Of a DNA stretch of 64,000 bases, positions 1,303-7,486 are shown piece after piece (positions within the stretch are counted from its first letter, which is position 1; each line of letters opens with the position of its first letter). Location: positions 1 through 64,000 of the IMG/VR virus record IMGVR_UViG_3300033149_004284; one strand, 5' to 3'. Source of the DNA: a virus. The notes beneath the pieces were generated by a model, which did no database searches, was not told the origin of the DNA, and saw nothing but the letters and a program-made list of their open reading frames with translations. Position numbers and translations under genes: made by a program.

Positions 1303-2852
1303 TGCTAGGCTATCCCACTACGCGGCGTTGGCATGTCAGTCAGAGATTTGGAGACCATCCCGACTGGTATGCTCCCTATAATCTGGCTGGCCATGAGGGA
1401 GTCGATTTTGCTTGTCCAGCGGGAACGCCAGTCTTTGCAAGCCATGACGGATGGTGTGAGCCAAGATGGAGAACTGCCTATGGAGAGCACGTCTATCTTT
1501 ACGGAGACGAGTGCTTGACTCTTTATGCCCATCTTAGTAAGATCAGTGTGGCTATGGGTCAGCGAGTGAAACGAGGGGAACAGATAGGGGAATCGGGGAA
1601 CACAGGCCGAACAACTGGCCCCCACCTCCATTTGGGCTTGAAAGTGAATGGGGTGCTGAACGGCCCATATAAAGATTGGATTGATCCTGTGCCGTACTTT
1701 GAGAAGGAGGATGTTATGACTAAGACCACAATGCATGTTCAGAGAGTTGAATCATGGATGGAGCAGGCTATCCGTGACCTGGGGGCCGATTGGGTGAAGT
1801 TAGTAAACCCTCCAGCTGGGCCAGACCCGATGCCGCGCGTGGCGAACAAGCTAGTTCGGTTATGGACAGACGACATAGACGCTGGATACATTCGCCGAGG
1901 GGAGGAGGGAGGCCGTGACTTTGTACGTAGGATGTTGCCAGAATGGAGAGGTCGCCCGTGGGCTACCTGCTACTCCCTTGCGAATGAGCCAGAGTGTAAC
2001 AATCCAGATAGCAACCCAGACGCCTTAGCCCATTTATGTGGCTATTCTATTGGGGCGATGAAGGAAGCCAGTGCGAACGGCATCCGAGTAGTCATTCTGG
2101 ACTTACCAGAAGGTAACCCATCAGGCGACGAGGGGGCAGTTCGCTGGAAATTAGAACAACTGGCTCCTGCGGTGCAGATGGCTGGGGTATTGGGGCACTA
2201 TGTTGGCCTTCATGCCTACTGGCGACCCGATGTCGAGGGGCCACTTGGCCGATGGCATGCTTTGGGCCGCATCGAGTGGGATATGGCCCAATGGATAGGC
2301 AAGGGTGTAACCTCCATGGGTGTAACCTCTAGCCCGCGTGTGCTCCTGACCGAGTGGGGAGTAGACGGTGGTATCGCAGGCCGCACTCCAAAGGAAGGCT
2401 GGCGTAAACTATATCCTGATCCACAGACATATTTCCACGAGGTGGCAGAGGGTGAGAAGCGACTTCGAGACTTACCTTGGATCATCGCGGCATTCCTATT
2501 CGACTTCGGCTACGAGGAACCTTGGTACCACTATGATCACGACGAGGGGGCAACCAGAAGCATCATAGGAGCGATGCAGGCATTACCTGACGAAGCCAGC
2601 TCAATAGCTCCCGTAGAGGAGTCCTCAGTGTCTGATATCGCATGGGCCAAATCTGCGCTCGGCAGCTGGCCCGCGACCATGAAAGACGCAAGGATCAATC
2701 ATGAGGAATGGATTATGCAAGACCCTGATAATCCGTGGCGCTACATTTCGCGGGTCGATACGACTGACACCTACTATGTAGTAGTGCTCGACCCCAATAC
2801 ATGGAAGCGAGTGCGAGCCACTTTAGTAGGCCAAACAACAGACTTGCTCTAA
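1302..2852 (+). CDS. Endolysin: N-terminal M23 peptidase plus glycoside-hydrolase-like TIM-barrel domain
   Basis: M23 motifs HEGVDF, YAHL, TTGPHLH; downstream clan-A GH-like NEP, GLHAY and LTEWG motifs. Confidence 0.85.
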   Translation: MLGYPTTRRWHVSQRFGDHPDWYAPYNLAGHEGVDFACPAGTPVFASHDGWCEPRWRTAYGEHVYLYGDECLTLYAHLSKISVAMGQRVKRGEQIGESGNTGRTTGPHLHLGLKVNGVLNGPYKDWIDPVPYFEKEDVMTKTTMHVQRVESWMEQAIRDLGADWVKLVNPPAGPDPMPRVANKLVRLWTDDIDAGYIRRGEEGGRDFVRRMLPEWRGRPWATCYSLANEPECNNPDSNPDALAHLCGYSIGAMKEASANGIRVVILDLPEGNPSGDEGAVRWKLEQLAPAVQMAGVLGHYVGLHAYWRPDVEGPLGRWHALGRIEWDMAQWIGKGVTSMGVTSSPRVLLTEWGVDGGIAGRTPKEGWRKLYPDPQTYFHEVAEGEKRLRDLPWIIAAFLFDFGYEEPWYHYDHDEGATRSIIGAMQALPDEASSIAPVEESSVSDIAWAKSALGSWPATMKDARINHEEWIMQDPDNPWRYISRVDTTDTYYVVVLDPNTWKRVRATLVGQTTDLL

Positions 2853-3003
2853 GATGATACAGAAGCGTGGAAAGTGTTAGATGGTAAGGTACTGTGAGAG
2901 GCAACTTGTGGAGATGATGCGCCTGGCCATGTACCATATCTTGCCCAGGGCCAATTTCGAGGCTATAATAAAAAGTAACTGGTGAACAACTAGGGAGGTA
3001 GAA

Positions 3004-3513
3004 ATGCAAGCAACATTGGCACGAACACTGAGCACACACTTCGATGTGGTGTGTCGGGGGCCAGACGGGAAACTCAAGTGGACGGATGAGTTCGATAACC
3101 TGGTGGTGAACGCCGGCCTGGACGACAGTCTGGACAAACACCTCAAAGGGTCGTCTTACACAGCGGCCTGGTATGTTGGGCTTACTGATGGTACTCCATC
3201 ATTTGCCGCAGGCGACACAGAATCTAGCCATGCTGGTTGGACTGAGGTAACTGCATACGATGAGGCGAACCGCCAGACACTTACGCTTGGTTCGGTCTCA
3301 GGGCAGTCGGTGGATAACTCGGCTTCCAAGGCAGTCTTTACCATCGATACCAACGACACTACAGTCGGTGGAGCCTTCATCACTACTACTGCTACCAAGG
3401 GCGGTAGCGTGGATACTCTCTATGGTGGAGGAGCTTTCACAGCGGGTGACAAGACGATTGATGACGGGGACTCCCTCACCCTGACAATAACCTGTACCGC
3501 TGCTGCGAGCTGA
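3004..3513 (+). CDS. Phage structural/tail-associated protein
   Basis: Strong RBS GGAGGT; Thr/Gly/Ala-rich beta protein with NLVVNAG..WYVGL pattern, in structural context. Confidence 0.6.
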   Translation: MQATLARTLSTHFDVVCRGPDGKLKWTDEFDNLVVNAGLDDSLDKHLKGSSYTAAWYVGLTDGTPSFAAGDTESSHAGWTEVTAYDEANRQTLTLGSVSGQSVDNSASKAVFTIDTNDTTVGGAFITTTATKGGSVDTLYGGGAFTAGDKTIDDGDSLTLTITCTAAAS

Positions 3514-3540
3514 CTCTAAGCTCACAACTAAGGGTAAGGT

Positions 3541-3681
3541 ATGGCTAGAAAGTGGTTGGAGGTTCTGTCAAAGCGTAACAGAACCTCCAAAACGAAGCGG
3601 CTCTACGAGGACGGTCAGTCCACCAACAAGTACAGTTGGGACGGTACGCTCCTGTATTATGATAGGAGACTGGGATTTTGA
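3541..3681 (+). pseudogene. 46-codon N-terminal relic of a large virion protein
   Basis: Translates MARKWLEVLSKRNRTSKTKRLYEDGQSTNKYSWDGTLLYYDRRLGF*; TGATG-coupled to the next ORF. Confidence 0.4.
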
Positions 3682-6407
3682 TGCTCCGAGAACCATCCTT
3701 GAAAGAAAACAGCACATATGAGATCACACTTGCTGGCGGCGATATAGTTGAAGTTGGCAACAGGCAAATTACGGATTTCGAGCCTCATGTCAAGCTAAGT
3801 CGCTGGGGAGGCGAGTGCTTCGTCAAAGTTGGTCTTTCACCCCAAAGGAAGATTTTGCCTGTTCTAGAAGACGGTAAAATCAAATGGATTGATAGGGATA
3901 CGGAAGCCTACTTCTATGCACTGGAACCCAGGACTGTCGTCGCCAAAAATAAGGCAGGTATAGCTAGTGAGTTCGGCCAATGTGAACTTGGAGGTTTTGA
4001 ATTTGAGGTTATCTTCAAGAAGAAGCCAGCTACTAACGAGATTATCTTCAATATTGAAACACAGGGACTCAAGTTCTACTACCAACCGCCACTTACACAA
4101 GAGGAAATTGCTGATGGGGCAATCGGACCAGAAAACGTAGTTGGCTCCTATGCTGTCTACCATGCCACCAGAACGAACATGCACACCTCTGAGGCAGATG
4201 CGGAAAAGTACAGATGTGGCAAAGCCTTTCATATCTATCGGCCAAAGATGACCGATGCAGAAGGAAACTGGACTTGGGAAGAGCTGAATATTGAGAATGG
4301 AATTCTGTCCATTACTTGCCCCCAAGAGTTTCTGGATAATGCTATTTATCCTATAAGTAGCAAGGGAACGAAGTTCGGATATGAAACACTGGGGTCTTAT
4401 AGTTTTAGCGCAATTCCTGATGGGGCAATTATAGGAAGTATTTTTACTCTATCCGAGGCTGGGGATGCTTCTAAGATGACATTGGGGCTTAGCCTGTTTT
4501 TGGATTCGATAGAAGAGAATAGCGTTGTGGTTATTCAAGGTAAAGGCGAGCTTCCTATTAAACAAGCAAGAATTGGAGACCTTGTTTTAGGTTACGATTT
4601 AGACAGGGAGAGAGTATCTTACAATAAAATCACCCGCTTGCATAGCCATAAGATAAAGGGATACATAGAAATCAATGGCCTGAAACTGACGCCAGATCAT
4701 TTGGTGTATGTTGAAAAGGGTTGGAGAAAAGCAGACGAGATTAGAGAAGGAGACAAGGTATTCGATGGACAAAGATGGATTGTTGTAAAAAAGGCCATTC
4801 CTCACGATGAATCAGTAGTTGCATATCATTTTGAGATAGAAGATGAACACAATTGCTTCGCCAACGGCATACTTGTTCACAATTTTGAGATCGCGTTTAA
4901 GGCAGCAATTTACGATTCATCTTTGGATTTAGTCGAACACGGAACAACCGATGAAGGAACTACAACCCAAGAAGCAGAGAAGTGGTATGATGTAGCCTTT
5001 GGCACCTCTCCAAGTCTGGCTGCTGGGGATTATTGGTTAGTTTTTAGTAGCGATGATCCAGGAGCCTACGCCTTCAATAAACTGTGCTACGATGTTGGCG
5101 CAGAGAATCAAGGAATGGGCGACGATACATCATGCGCTAGCTACGGAAGTTTATGGCCTGCCACTATATCCCTCGATGAACAAAATAACTACAAATACTC
5201 CATTTATTGTACGTACACGGCGGGGGCACAGCCTGAAGACTATCCCGTATCTCTATCCCTCTCACGCGTGGCTACAGCGGCAGCGTCGGGTCAGGCAGGA
5301 ACTCTTGGCAGCGCATCGCTAGGGCGGGCAGCTGGGGTATCTGATGGGGGGCAAGCTGGGACGCTGGCTGGTGCGTCGCTGACTAGGTCAGTGGGGCTAT
5401 CACCAACGAGGGTGGCAGGAATTGGAGCCGCCATTTCTTTGGCTAGGTCAGTGGGGGTGAGTGATACCGCTCTAGGCGTAAGCCTGGGCACGATGACTTT
5501 GGACCGAGAAGGCGGAATCTCGACGGCGGCTCTGGCTGCTGTAATAGCTGATGCTTCCCTAGCAAGACAAACAGGACTGACAGATTCAGGGCAAGCGACA
5601 GGCTTGGGTGTACTAGACCTAGAACGAGTCGATGCAATATCAGCAGCGGGAGTAGCAGCTGCCTTGGCGAGTACCTCTCTGGCAAGATTAGCAGGGATGT
5701 CAGCAACAAGAGTAGCAGGGGTCAAGGCCGCCATATCCTTGGCCAGGGCTGCTGGATTGAGCGACGCGGCTCTAGCTGTAAGTCTGGGTACAATAGCTCT
5801 GGACCGAAATGCCACTATCTCGGCTGTGGCTCTGGCAGTGGCATTAGCAAGTGCCTCCTTGACAAGGCAGATAGGATTGACAGATGCAGGCGTGGCTGCC
5901 ACTCAATCTGCTGCCTCCTTGTTGAGACGGGCAGGACTAAGTGCTGAGTCTTTGGCCTCGGCCTTGGCCGCAGCAGCACTTTCGAGGTCGGATGGAGCAA
6001 CTCTAACAGCCTCAGCTCAGGCCCTAGCAGATGCCCTCCTGGGCATATTTCAAGGGCTGGCGGCTTCCCCTAGACTAGACTTCAAATCTTCACTTACCCT
6101 AGACCGCTCCCTGGGACTGACCTCCTCAGGAGCAGCTGCAACAGAGGCACTTACAGCCTCAGCCTTAGCCCTAGGCGTGGACGCAAGTGCTTTGGCTTCA
6201 GCCACTACCTCAATGACATTGACTAGGCAACAGGTCATCTCGTTGCTTGTCGAAGTAGTCGTGATTGCGTCCCTTGGATTCGTAGAAGTCGCAGAGACAT
6301 TGCTGAATACCATCTCGGCCAGCGACACGAGCTCGACTAACCTGGCTGTCAGTGAGACGCTTCTTGGCAAGATCGCTGTTAGCGACTTGGGGGATGAAAA
6401 TGGCTAA
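3678..6407 (+). CDS. Large virion-type protein with internal Hint (intein-like) domain and C-terminal 20-aa Ala/Ser/Leu repeats
   Basis: 909-aa ORF; Hint blocks recognisable; about 16 LxR-anchored 20-aa repeats. Confidence 0.75.
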   Translation: MMLREPSLKENSTYEITLAGGDIVEVGNRQITDFEPHVKLSRWGGECFVKVGLSPQRKILPVLEDGKIKWIDRDTEAYFYALEPRTVVAKNKAGIASEFGQCELGGFEFEVIFKKKPATNEIIFNIETQGLKFYYQPPLTQEEIADGAIGPENVVGSYAVYHATRTNMHTSEADAEKYRCGKAFHIYRPKMTDAEGNWTWEELNIENGILSITCPQEFLDNAIYPISSKGTKFGYETLGSYSFSAIPDGAIIGSIFTLSEAGDASKMTLGLSLFLDSIEENSVVVIQGKGELPIKQARIGDLVLGYDLDRERVSYNKITRLHSHKIKGYIEINGLKLTPDHLVYVEKGWRKADEIREGDKVFDGQRWIVVKKAIPHDESVVAYHFEIEDEHNCFANGILVHNFEIAFKAAIYDSSLDLVEHGTTDEGTTTQEAEKWYDVAFGTSPSLAAGDYWLVFSSDDPGAYAFNKLCYDVGAENQGMGDDTSCASYGSLWPATISLDEQNNYKYSIYCTYTAGAQPEDYPVSLSLSRVATAAASGQAGTLGSASLGRAAGVSDGGQAGTLAGASLTRSVGLSPTRVAGIGAAISLARSVGVSDTALGVSLGTMTLDREGGISTAALAAVIADASLARQTGLTDSGQATGLGVLDLERVDAISAAGVAAALASTSLARLAGMSATRVAGVKAAISLARAAGLSDAALAVSLGTIALDRNATISAVALAVALASASLTRQIGLTDAGVAATQSAASLLRRAGLSAESLASALAAAALSRSDGATLTASAQALADALLGIFQGLAASPRLDFKSSLTLDRSLGLTSSGAAATEALTASALALGVDASALASATTSMTLTRQQVISLLVEVVVIASLGFVEVAETLLNTISASDTSSTNLAVSETLLGKIAVSDLGDENG
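4506..4883 (+). mobile_element. 126-aa Hint domain (mini-intein / bacterial intein-like), no endonuclease
   Basis: Block A SIEENSVVVI..PIKQARIGDLVLGYD, block B LTPDHLVYV, block F/G YHFEIEDEHNCFANGILVHN; next residue is Phe. Confidence 0.85.
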
Positions 6408-6699
6408 CGTGTATGATATAGGCGACCTAGTCAAGGTCGCAGGAGCCTTCACAGATGTGGACGACCAGGACGTCGACCCAACGACCGTCACCTTTAAATT
6501 CACTGACCCCTCAGGCAATACTACTACGTACATCTACGAAACTGACGACGAATTAGTCCAAGACTCAAAGGGCCACTATCATGCGAATGTCAGCATTGAT
6601 GAGGCAGGGACTTGGTTCTACCGATGGGAGAGTACGGGTACGGGCCAGGCTGCTGAAGAGGGTCACTTCGTGGTGCGGAGGTCAAACATTGCGACATAG
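6400..6699 (+). CDS. Small beta-sandwich structural protein (BppU N-terminal-like)
   Basis: YDIGDLVKV..DPTTVTFKFTDPSG..GHYHA..GTWFYRW pattern; overlaps previous stop. Confidence 0.55.
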   Translation: MANVYDIGDLVKVAGAFTDVDDQDVDPTTVTFKFTDPSGNTTTYIYETDDELVQDSKGHYHANVSIDEAGTWFYRWESTGTGQAAEEGHFVVRRSNIAT

Positions 6700-6803
6700 T
6701 CCACGGAACCGTGATTGCATACTATCCCTAGTGGGGTGAGAATAGAAACATCCCCATAGGTAGTAGGTGGCTTAGACATCACACAAAAAATAGGGAGATC
6801 ACA

Positions 6804-7082
6804 ATGGGGGTTTCTTTCGAGGTCTTTGTTCCCGTGATAGTTGCCTGTTTCGCTGCTATCTTGAGAGTTTACAGTTACAGCCACAAGGTAGCCCGCGACA
6901 TCGAGGCCAGGGATATCAAAGACAAGGAAGCCATTCTCAGGAAGTTGGATGGGTTAGTAACAGACATCCAGGGGATGAAAGTGGCCTTAACCAACCGTCT
7001 AACTAGGATTGAGACGACGCTCTCCATTGATCCACCTGGGAAGGCTTCACTTGATCCCCCTGGGAAGGTTTTGAGGAAATGA
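6804..7082 (+). CDS. Single-TM coiled-coil membrane protein (holin/hemolysin-like)
   Basis: N-terminal hydrophobic helix followed by coiled coil ending RLTRIET; RBS GGGAG. Confidence 0.55.
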   Translation: MGVSFEVFVPVIVACFAAILRVYSYSHKVARDIEARDIKDKEAILRKLDGLVTDIQGMKVALTNRLTRIETTLSIDPPGKASLDPPGKVLRK

Positions 7083-7486
7083 CCATTACTGATGTGTATA
7101 AGCAGCGTCATGCGGGGAGGATGGCGGGGCTTTTTGAGTTAGACCCTGAAGACCCCGACTATGAGGTCTTTGGTAGGCCAACTCACATCGCAGTTGGGAG
7201 CGGGACTTTGACTTCAGGGGAAGCCAGCAAATTGACTGCCCTGGTGAACGAAGTCGCCAGACAGCCGATCACGGCCAGATGGCGGACTGGGGGCAATTCA
7301 GACATAGCCAGATTCTCGGCCATCTTCACCAAGGGGGTTGGCAACGCTACCTGGAAGGAGATAGGGCTGTTCAATGCGGGGTCAGGTGGGGATATGCTGG
7401 TGAGGGACGAGAATGCGGATGGATACTGTACTAAGACAGCCTCTCAAGTCAAGGTTGTGGTATGCCAGTTGCGTATCAGTGGCTAG
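7079..7486 (+). CDS. Tail-collar/fibre N-terminal-like domain protein
   Basis: THIAVGSG..L.NEVAR..WKEIGLFNA..GDML.R motifs. Confidence 0.65.
   Translation: MTITDVYKQRHAGRMAGLFELDPEDPDYEVFGRPTHIAVGSGTLTSGEASKLTALVNEVARQPITARWRTGGNSDIARFSAIFTKGVGNATWKEIGLFNAGSGGDMLVRDENADGYCTKTASQVKVVVCQLRISG

What the first reader, a model, noticed from the sequence alone, without database searches (positions are those of the whole stretch)
4506..4886. Hint domain with Ser1 and Phe+1 inserted mid-domain in a virion-type protein
Seen: a 126-aa Hint (S-IEENSVVVI..TPDH..GILVHN) followed by Phe rather than Cys/Ser/Thr. The flanks join as GSIFTLSEAGDASKMTLGLSLFLD|FEIAFKAAIYDSS..WYDVAF..SLAAGDYWLV, which reads like one continuous beta-sandwich. 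Known: canonical intein splicing needs a +1 nucleophile; A-type BIL and pretoxin Hint domains with other +1 residues mainly self-cleave and can splice non-canonically. Inference: either non-canonical splicing restores a binding domain, or self-cleavage releases the N-terminal module from the repeat stalk during maturation.
Basis: partly seen in the sequence, partly recalled or inferred. Interest (0 to 1): 0.7.

Follow-up and report, generated by a model that had tools for sequence, protein, structure and literature searches.

The report
Non-splicing Hint domain inside phage fibre domain
A small intein-like (Hint) self-processing domain that lacks the residue needed for normal protein splicing sits in a tight turn of a sugar-binding-type domain of an uncultured phage's tail fibre protein, so it probably cuts itself out and leaves a nicked or unconventionally re-joined fibre; nothing about this has been tested.

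Summary
Window 4506-4883 encodes a 126-aa Hint domain (Pfam PT-HINT, E 2.4e-10). It has Ser at position 1, a TxxH block B and a perfect C-terminal NGILVHN, followed by Phe (4884-4886).

It lies in a 909-aa protein of the tail module of an 86-kb siphovirus-like phage contig. About 100 Hint-less homologues align straight across the junction. Structure models place the insert in a 6-residue turn between two strands of a lectin/CBM-like beta-sandwich, a fold also found in the Bxb1 tail tip.

The nearest Hint relatives are not canonical inteins. They form a large class ending in HN followed mostly by Lys, often tandem or capping phage fibres. The best structural match is the Clostridium thermocellum type-A BIL domain.

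Five other family members carry Hints at exactly the same turn, none with a +1 nucleophile. They fall in three extein lineages, and a single clade is rejected (p-AU 0.012).

Most likely the domain excises itself and leaves a two-chain fibre held together by the shared sandwich. Aminolysis-type re-ligation and an inert insert remain open.

This scan has already found related "Hint caps" on phage fibres in other genomes. The mid-domain position is the new element.

The parts
3678..6407 (+). 909-aa tail-fibre / tail-tip-type protein (TTG 3678 or ATG 3681 start; stop codon included)
   Evidence: ORF list and translation. 461 homologues, mostly from metagenomes. 276 IMG/VR viral stretches encode the family. 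Tail-module neighbours.
3678..4361 (+). Domain 1 (about residues 1-228): conserved beta-supersandwich with invariant Ser/Tyr/His/Arg motifs (RPENVVGSYAVYH, GKAFHIYRPK)
   Evidence: Invariant columns in alignment A1. pLDDT above 90. VIA Z 8-9 to mutarotase-like and polysaccharide-lyase-type sandwiches, which is a middling match.
4362..4505 (+). N-terminal part of the lectin/CBM-like beta-sandwich (about residues 229-276; strands 251-258 and 262-275). The N-extein ends at Asp276.
   Evidence: DSSP of the precursor model. Alignment with Hint-less homologues.
4506..4883 (+). Hint domain, 126 aa (residues 277-402), of the type-A-BIL / PT-HINT-like class
   Evidence: Pfam. Family HMM 122 bits. Foldseek top hit 2LWY, E 8e-6, TMt 0.73. 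GC 39.4% against 44.8-48.4% in the flanks.
4506..4508 (+). Ser277 codon (TCG): Hint residue 1, the presumed nucleophile for the N-O acyl shift
   Evidence: Falls on the consensus Cys1 of the relatives by gap-free extrapolation from the HMM alignment. The surrounding block A is atypical and was modelled with pLDDT below 50.
4689..4700 (+). Block B Thr338-Pro-Asp-His341 (TxxH)
   Evidence: Sequence. Aligned to the consensus vTpeH.
4878..4883 (+). His401-Asn402, the terminal HN of block G (site of Asn cyclisation)
   Evidence: Sequence. HN ends 208 of 237 related Hint domains.
4884..4886 (+). +1 residue Phe403 (TTT), not a nucleophile
   Evidence: Sequence. The same-site relatives have A, K, Y or G at the junction with the C-extein.
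4884..5237 (+). C-terminal part of the lectin/CBM-like beta-sandwich (about residues 403-520). It retains the family's near-invariant W436, Y452, D472 and the S508-Y513 stretch.
   Evidence: A1 invariant list. Strands 405-515 at high pLDDT. The equivalent domain of Hint-less P0020 matches 9jwb_Z (Z 14.9), Cwp84 lectin-like domain (13.7) and the Bxb1 tail tip (13.6).
5316..6404 (+). Ala/Leu/Ser/Gly-rich C-terminal region with a 20-residue period (about 18 repeats); no Pfam family
   Evidence: Autocorrelation peaks at 20, 40 and 60 residues. No DNA-level tandem repeat. Only Hint families and one weak sub-threshold match were found for the whole protein.

Best explanation
A Hint domain of the non-splicing, type-A-BIL-like class is inserted in a 6-residue beta-turn of the lectin-like sandwich of a phage tail-fibre protein. 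The inferred sequence of events is as follows. The precursor folds, with the Hint ends adjacent at the turn. Asn402 then cyclises and cuts the Hint/Phe403 bond. Ser277 makes an N-O acyl shift whose ester is hydrolysed. Because +1 is Phe, no branched intermediate can form, so canonical splicing is impossible. The main product would then be a two-chain fibre (1-276 plus 403-909). Its halves should stay together because they contribute strands to one beta-sandwich. At most a fraction would be re-joined when the new Phe403 amino group attacks the ester. Shown here: the domain, its class, its catalytic residues, its exact position in the fold, and its recurrence at the same turn in relatives. Not shown: any chemistry.
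For: - Catalytic positions are present: Ser1, TxxH, and HN preceded by a consensus block F/G.
- +1 is Phe. In the 150 best-scoring proteins of the exhaustive search, 208 of 237 Hints end in HN. Their +1 residue is K 132, G 20, A 17, L 11, against S 9, C 7, T 1.
- The top PDB fold hit is the C. thermocellum BIL domain 2LWY.
- For type-A BILs the literature reports cleavage products dominating, with splicing possible by aminolysis (PMC4031507; PMC7664689).
- The insertion lies in a turn between strands 251-262 and 269-276 of Hint-less P0020 (pLDDT above 90). In the window these are strands 262-275 and 405-413.
- The split lectin domain keeps all family-invariant residues. It is no more diverged than unsplit homologues: domain-2 identity 30.6% against a mean of 33.3% at matched domain-1 identity.
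- In relatives with three tandem Hints at the same turn, the outermost junctions keep Cys1 and HN, while the inner ones have lost Asn or the nucleophile. This fits selection for excision and makes one-site splicing chemistry implausible there.
Against: - There is no biochemical evidence.
- Block A (SIEENSVVV) is atypical against the consensus CFLAGT, and AlphaFold models residues 278-291 with pLDDT below 50. N-terminal cleavage is therefore less certain than C-terminal cleavage.
- Once the Hint is removed, the loop has the family's usual length in all three Hint-bearing lineages. This would be expected if the ends are re-ligated.
- A mid-domain site in a conserved fold is typical of splicing inteins. 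BILs are described as sitting in variable regions (PMC7765530).
Confidence: 0.45

Rival explanations
1. Non-canonical splicing is the main outcome. The ester forms at Ser277 and Asn402 cyclises. The freed alpha-amine of Phe403 is held next to Asp276 by the already folded beta-sandwich. It attacks the ester and restores an intact lectin domain. This is the type-A BIL aminolysis route.
For: - The aminolysis mechanism is documented for type-A BILs (PMC4031507; Aranko 2013 as cited there).
- The insert sits in a tight turn, so the extein ends must be adjacent.
- The loop length after removal equals the family norm in all three lineages.
- The host domain keeps its invariant residues.
- The patchy, same-site distribution among homologues is intein-like.
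Against: - In tested BILs cleavage products dominate.
- Ser1 gives an oxyester, which is less reactive to amines than a thioester (general chemistry).
- In the triple-Hint relatives the N-junction nucleophile and the C-junction Asn lie in different Hint domains. Ligation cannot be the general solution at this site.
Confidence: 0.25
2. Inert or decaying insertion. The Hint no longer processes and is simply tolerated as an extra domain displayed on a surface turn of the lectin domain.
For: - The N-terminal block A is atypical and poorly modelled.
- Relatives show decayed copies: the second Hint of the triples ends in DD or SD, the third begins with D or E, and block A of P0087 is degenerate.
- No close relatives of this Hint exist with which to test purifying selection.
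Against: - All catalytic positions are present, including a perfect block F/G.
- In the triples the outer junction residues are exactly the ones that are kept.
Confidence: 0.2
3. A recently disabled canonical intein. The +1 Ser or Cys was lost by a single mutation (TTT is one base from TCT or TGT), leaving a non-splicing remnant.
For: The +1 codon is TTT. The site is mid-domain and intein-like.
Against: - None of the five other same-site Hints has a +1 nucleophile at its junction with the C-extein; they have A, K, Y, G, G.
- The nearest 237 relatives are overwhelmingly HN followed by K, G or A. Absence of the nucleophile is the norm of the class, not a recent accident.
Confidence: 0.05
4. Chemical coupling. 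The ester at Asp276 is captured by an outside nucleophile (another virion protein or a host-surface molecule). The N-terminal part would then be covalently attached, as Hedgehog Hint domains transfer their N-terminal domain to cholesterol (PMC7664689).
For: Analogy only: Hedgehog Hint domains transfer the N-terminal part to an external nucleophile, cholesterol (PMC7664689). The Tetrahymena BIL2 structures (6Y75, 6TMM) are also among the top fold hits, but that they transfer the N-extein to a Lys amine is recalled knowledge, not checked in a paper here. Earlier scan reports raised the same idea for fibre-capping Hints.
Against: There is no candidate acceptor. The site is buried in a turn of a folded domain, and there is no +1 Lys here, unlike most relatives.
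Confidence: 0.05

Closest known systems
Type-A bacterial intein-like (BIL) domains (Amitai 2003; Dassa 2004; C. thermocellum BIL, PDB 2LWY)
   Same: Hint fold. N-terminal Ser/Cys. C-terminal His-Asn. No +1 nucleophile. No homing endonuclease. 2LWY is the best structural match.
   Different: BILs are described in variable regions of non-conserved secreted bacterial proteins (PMC7765530). This one interrupts a turn inside a conserved folded domain of a phage structural protein, and it has Ser rather than Cys at position 1. BIL-A-specific sequence motifs could not be tested because no profile was at hand.
Canonical class 1 mini-inteins (for example Mtu RecA mini-intein, gp41-1)
   Same: Size. Blocks A, B, F and G. 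Ser1, TxxH and HN. Insertion inside a conserved host domain. Patchy distribution among homologues at one fixed site.
   Different: +1 is Phe, so the branched intermediate and canonical splicing are impossible. The nearest sequence relatives are not inteins of replication proteins but HN|K Hints of fibre-type and adhesin-like proteins.
Pretoxin Hint (PT-HINT, PF07591) of polymorphic toxins
   Same: Best Pfam match, above the gathering threshold. HN followed by a non-nucleophile.
   Different: No toxin domain follows, only the rest of a lectin-like domain and an Ala/Leu/Ser repeat region. The location is mid-domain, not an inter-domain linker.
'Hint caps' at the C-termini of phage tail fibres, found earlier in this scan (for example e1-3482894, e1-5319644, e1-3282460)
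   Same: Same broad Hint class (HN followed by Lys, Gly or Ala) and same kind of host protein. My exhaustive search retrieves 47 terminal caps among the relatives.
   Different: Those are terminal modules behind Gly linkers with almost nothing after them. Here 507 residues follow, and the Hint splits a folded domain.
Peptidase S74 intramolecular chaperone autoprotease of phage tail spikes and fibres
   Same: A self-removing module in phage fibre maturation (PMC7824862).
   Different: Unrelated fold and chemistry (Ser-Lys dyad). It is C-terminal, not inserted in a domain.

Membership tests
Hint superfamily | Hint fold and sequence profile | tested here: met
   PT-HINT E 2.4e-10 and Intein_splicing E 6.5e-9. 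Foldseek probability 1.00 to about 30 intein and BIL structures.
Canonical (class 1) intein | Cys/Ser at intein position 1 | tested here: met
   Ser277 falls on the consensus Cys1 by gap-free extrapolation from the HMM alignment. The block A context is atypical.
Canonical (class 1) intein | Block B TxxH and terminal His-Asn | tested here: met
   TPDH at residues 338-341 and HN at 401-402.
Canonical (class 1) intein | Cys/Ser/Thr at the +1 position of the C-extein | tested here: not met
   +1 is Phe (TTT, 4884-4886). The next Ser is about 11 residues downstream.
Canonical (class 1) intein | Insertion in a conserved host domain, with insert-free homologues aligning across the site | tested here: met
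   The turn itself is variable in sequence, but its flanking strands are conserved.
Type-A BIL domain | C-terminal His-Asn together with absence of a +1 nucleophile | tested here: met
   HN|F. Definition taken from PMC4031507.
Type-A BIL domain | Location in hypervariable regions of non-conserved bacterial proteins | tested here: not met
   The insert is inside a conserved lectin-like domain of a phage protein. Definition taken from PMC7765530.
Type-A BIL domain | BIL-A-specific sequence motifs (Amitai 2003) | not tested
   No BIL-A profile was available. There is only the structural similarity to 2LWY, which does not stand clearly above the mini-inteins.
Type-A BIL domain | Autocatalytic N- and/or C-terminal cleavage | not testable with these tools
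   Needs expression and mass spectrometry.
PT-HINT (polymorphic toxin pretoxin Hint) | Pfam PF07591 above the gathering score | tested here: met
   35.6 bits for the whole protein and 41.2 bits for the domain, against a cut-off of 27.7.
PT-HINT (polymorphic toxin pretoxin Hint) | Sits directly upstream of a C-terminal toxin domain | tested here: not met
   No toxin family was found downstream. The downstream sequence is the rest of the lectin-like domain followed by 20-residue repeats.
Phage tail fibre / tail-tip protein | Encoded in the tail module and sharing a fold with known tail proteins | tested here: met
   Neighbours are an M23 tail peptidase, a Gp80-like gene and a tail-collar fibre gene. 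The tape measure lies upstream across the contig end. Domain 2 matches the Bxb1 tail tip at Z 13.6 and many fibre and minor tail proteins in BFVD. Presence in the virion was not shown.

The most novel reading that the evidence does not exclude
The turn between strands 3 and 4 of this lectin-like fibre domain may be a recurrent, selected landing site for endonuclease-free BIL-type Hints. There they would act as a maturation device. One version is efficient splicing without any +1 nucleophile, because the folded sandwich clamps the two ends together; this would be a natural mid-domain example of aminolysis splicing. The other version is deliberate conversion of a single-chain fibre into a nicked, two-chain, force-separable one.
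Probability: 0.2. Interest if true: 0.75.

Novelty: new variant of a known kind. Interest (0 to 1): 0.55.

Why it matters
Inteins are defined by seamless splicing and BIL or pretoxin Hints by cleavage at domain boundaries. This element combines the BIL chemistry (no +1 nucleophile) with the intein position (inside a conserved folded domain).

The phage must therefore either live with a nicked receptor-binding-type domain or use nucleophile-free ligation in nature. Either outcome would be informative for Hint evolution and for protein engineering, as a natural split or ligated beta-sandwich.

It also extends the apparently undescribed association of HN|K-type Hints with phage fibres from terminal caps to internal insertions. 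The recurrence at one turn in three extein lineages offers a small natural experiment on how Hint domains spread without a homing endonuclease.

Tried and rejected
- A word-based homologue search with the Hint alone found nothing at E <= 1e-3.
- The same search with residues 240-520 returned only unrelated Hint proteins and one Hint-less lectin-repeat protein.
- A metagenome scan with the Hint plus flanks found no relative.
- No sequencing run was listed for the region. Read-level checks of the TTT codon and of Hint-less alleles were therefore not possible, and read laying was not used.
The contexts of database homologues came from the search for related loci instead.
- None of 80 IMG/VR loci carries a Hint in ORFs of at least 200 aa. 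Only the Levyibacteriota locus among 80 genome loci carries a same-site Hint.
- The joined-extein sequence could not be handed to the structure tool. A natural Hint-less homologue (P0020) was folded instead.
- A first AU test on a quick tree did not reject one clade of Hint-bearers (p 0.571). The quick tree was poor, with a log-likelihood 119 units below the careful tree. The careful tree and its AU test supersede it.
- The internal 'HN-C' (EHNCF) was considered as an alternative splice junction and rejected. It is the ordinary block F 'HNF/Y' position of the family consensus.
- No DNA-level tandem repeat underlies the C-terminal repeats.
- Literature searches for Hint, intein or BIL domains in phage tail fibres found only inteins in terminase, polymerase and reductase genes.
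- Complex prediction was not used. The two halves of one domain would pass trivially.
Full report
**1. The observation**

It lies in frame in ORF 3678-6407, which encodes 909 aa.

Pfam recognises the segment as a Hint domain. PT-HINT scores E 2.4e-10 and 41.2 bits against a cut-off of 27.7. Intein_splicing scores E 6.5e-9.

I built an HMM from the nearest relatives; it scores 122 bits. Gap-free extrapolation from its first aligned residue puts Ser277 on the consensus Cys1 and Ser282 on the block A Thr. It aligns TPDH (338-341) to block B and the last 21 residues to the consensus block F/G ending VHN. The +1 codon is TTT.

**2. Context**

The window is the first 64 kb of an 86,287-bp contig. 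This is the longest contig of a fragmented 2.57-Mb MAG, and it has no terminal repeat.

The contig is phage throughout. It carries a portal gene, a protease-major-capsid fusion, a 1,477-aa tape measure, a helicase, methyltransferases and an HNH-AP2 gene. The tail module runs off the contig end and resumes at the window start. The genes just upstream of the Hint-bearing gene are an M23-peptidase tail protein and a Gp80-like fibre gene, and a tail-collar-fibre-like gene lies downstream. The host protein is therefore a tail fibre or tail-tip protein by position.

Its family is large but uncultured:
- 461 database hits.
- 276 IMG/VR stretches.
- 119 stretches in MAGs of Dehalococcoidia (the closest, 51-55% identity), Omnitrophota, Patescibacteria, Planctomycetia, and ANME and DPANN archaea.
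- Only one weak hit among 50,697 deposited phage genomes.

**3. Where the Hint sits**

I joined the exteins in a script and used them as a BLAST query. They align continuously from about residue 12 to 390, straight across the junction at 276, with about 100 Hint-less homologues and with 65 of 81 HSPs from viral loci.

MAFFT places the junction in a short variable turn between two conserved strands.

AlphaFold2 models give the same picture:
- The precursor (residues 1-560, mean pLDDT 82) has strands 251-258 and 262-275, then the Hint, then strands 405-515.
- The natural Hint-less homologue P0020 has pLDDT above 90 for residues 1-366. The corresponding strands 251-262 and 269-276 are joined by a 6-residue turn.

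VIA-align splits the conserved module into two domains:
- A beta-supersandwich (1-216), with Z 8-9 to mutarotase-like and polysaccharide-lyase-type sandwiches. This is a middling match.
- A lectin/CBM-like sandwich (217-366). It matches a cyanophage A4 capsid chain (Z 14.9), the Cwp84 lectin-like domain (13.7), a Bxb1 tail-tip protein (13.6) and a PBCV-1 capsid protein (12.6).

BFVD adds many fibre and minor-tail proteins with the same second domain. The Hint therefore interrupts one folded domain after its third strand.

**4. What kind of Hint it is**

An exhaustive phmmer search of 1.84 billion representatives gave 2,667 hits at E <= 1e-3. None exceeded about 42% identity.

In the top 150 proteins I parsed 237 Hint domains:
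- 208 end in HN.
- The next residue is K in 132, G in 20, A in 17 and L in 11, against S 9, C 7 and T 1.
- Residue 1 is mostly Cys, in the motif CFLAGT.

A second parse of the same proteins with the family HMM (266 Hint domains) showed that they occur as tandem arrays (97), as internal modules followed by at least 100 residues (94), as internal modules with 26-99 residues after them (28) and as C-terminal caps (47).

Foldseek ranks the C. thermocellum BIL domain 2LWY first (E 8e-6, TMt 0.73). The RecA mini-intein and the Tetrahymena BIL2 follow closely.

The literature held here describes type-A BILs as having HN but no +1 nucleophile. They give mainly cleavage products. They can splice when the freed C-fragment amine attacks the N-terminal thioester (PMC4031507; PMC7664689; PMC7765530).

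The element is thus a BIL-A / PT-HINT-like Hint, not a decayed canonical intein. Absence of a +1 nucleophile is the norm of its class.

**5. Relatives with a Hint at the same turn**

Five other family members carry Hints at this very turn:
- P0087 has a single Hint, ending HN|A.
- P0067 has a single Hint with Cys1, ending HN|K.
- P0038, P0124 and P0141 each have three tandem Hints.

In four of the five, the C-extein starts exactly five residues before the conserved Lys of the next strand, as in the window.

In the triples, the first Hint keeps Cys1 at the junction with the N-extein and the third keeps HN at the junction with the C-extein. The inner junctions have decayed: the second Hint ends in DD or SD, and the third begins with D or E. 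This pattern fits selection for cutting at both outer junctions. It is hard to reconcile with one-active-site splicing.

P0074 and P0116 carry a Cys1...HN|L or HN|I Hint in a different, C-terminal sandwich-like segment.

Same-site Hints are rare. I found 6 in all: the window plus five others among roughly 280 family sequences inspected. Eighty viral loci had none, and 80 genome loci contained only the Levyibacteriota contig that encodes P0067 and P0038 side by side.

**6. One origin or several**

On an extein-only alignment, with the Hint columns removed, the careful IQ-TREE tree places the six Hint-bearers in three positions:
- The window lies near Hint-less P0003.
- P0087 lies inside a 100/100-supported clade of 25 Hint-less sequences.
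- The P0038 group lies inside a 96/95-supported set with 12 Hint-less sequences.

No bootstrap tree unites them. Forcing one clade costs 107.7 log-likelihood units, p-AU 0.012. An earlier quick-tree test (p 0.571) is superseded, because the quick tree was 119 units worse.

The Hints themselves are not each other's nearest relatives, although their branches are long. The window's lectin domain is not specially similar to those of the other Hint-bearers.

So one of three things happened: the same turn was hit several times, an old insert was lost many times, or the insert moved by recombination between mosaic fibre genes. I cannot tell which. No homing endonuclease is present. The Hint has the lowest GC of the gene, 39.4% against 44.8-48.4% in the flanks and 51.3% for the window. 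This is compatible with foreign origin.

**7. Is the split domain still under constraint**

The window keeps every invariant or near-invariant residue of the lectin domain. For pairs with 58-70% identity in domain 1, the window's domain-2 identity (mean 30.6%) lies inside the range seen for unsplit pairs (mean 33.3%, 5-95% range 23-50%). The insert has therefore not released the domain from selection. The Hint must be removed or tolerated.

**8. Mechanism**

The best-supported step is C-terminal cleavage by Asn402 cyclisation, because block F/G is a perfect consensus.

N-terminal ester formation at Ser277 is plausible but weaker. Block A is atypical, and residues 278-291 have pLDDT below 50 in an alignment that is shallow for the Hint.

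With Phe at +1, canonical splicing is excluded. My estimates are:
- 0.45: excision leaves a two-chain fibre whose halves remain bound through the shared sandwich.
- 0.25: aminolysis re-ligation is the main outcome. It is favoured by the clamped geometry and by the loop regaining the family's usual length after removal in all three lineages.
- 0.20: the insert is inert.
- 0.05: it is a recently disabled canonical intein.
- 0.05: the ester is captured by an outside nucleophile.

All chemistry is inferred.

**9. Relation to what is known and to this scan**

I found no paper in the held library describing a Hint or BIL domain in a phage tail fibre. Phage inteins reported there sit in terminase, polymerase, helicase or reductase genes.

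Earlier reports of this scan describe the same Hint class as C-terminal 'caps' of phage fibres in many other genomes, again with type-A BIL as the closest known family. My search recovers such caps among the relatives. None of those reports concerns this protein family.

The new element here is the position: inside a folded, conserved domain with 507 residues following. I rate it a new variant of a known kind.

Noticed in passing
window 3678-4361 (residues 1-228) and alignment A1: Domain 1 of the fibre family carries strikingly invariant motifs (RPENVVGSYAVYH and GKAFHIYRPK; invariant S157, Y161, Y178, H185, D193) on a mutarotase- or lyase-like supersandwich. This looks more like an enzyme or fixed binding pocket than a structural anchor. 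In some homologues the module is not N-terminal.
   Followed up: partly
L088 (Levyibacteriota MAG contig JBLMVJ010000008.1), ORFs 1867-4314 and 4479-7250: Two adjacent paralogous fibre genes both carry Hints at the same lectin-domain turn, one single and one triple tandem. In the triple, only the outermost junctions keep the catalytic residues.
   Followed up: partly
window 4828-4837 / 4882-4891 and 4508-4516 / 4835-4843: Two exact short direct repeats link block F of the Hint with its junctions. ATTTTGAGAT occurs at block F and at the C-junction, in frame and 54 nt apart. GATAGAAGA occurs at the N-junction and at block F. They may be chance, or substrates for in-frame deletion.
   Followed up: no
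window 5316-6404: The C-terminal 363 residues are Ala/Leu/Ser/Gly-rich with a clean 20-residue period. There is no DNA-level repeat and no Pfam family, so this is an undescribed fibre repeat.
   Followed up: partly
Genome-contig loci L083-L162: The fibre family occurs in MAGs spanning Dehalococcoidia, Omnitrophota, Patescibacteria, Planctomycetia, Gammaproteobacteria, and ANME, DPANN and Asgard-labelled archaea. This is an unusually wide spread for one tail-protein module, though binning artefacts are possible.
   Followed up: no
L001:4922-7600 and L001:527-4558 (contig 68,922-71,600 and 64,527-68,558): An 892-aa protein carries prohead-protease and major-capsid-type matches and an N-terminal endonuclease-like segment. 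A separate 1,343-aa protein combines DNA methyltransferase-like and ligase-like segments.
   Followed up: no
top hits (for example P0126, P0138, P0150): Many proteins carry two to five tandem Hints joined by HN|K-Gly(n)-C linkers. The conserved +1 Lys of this class is unexplained.
   Followed up: no
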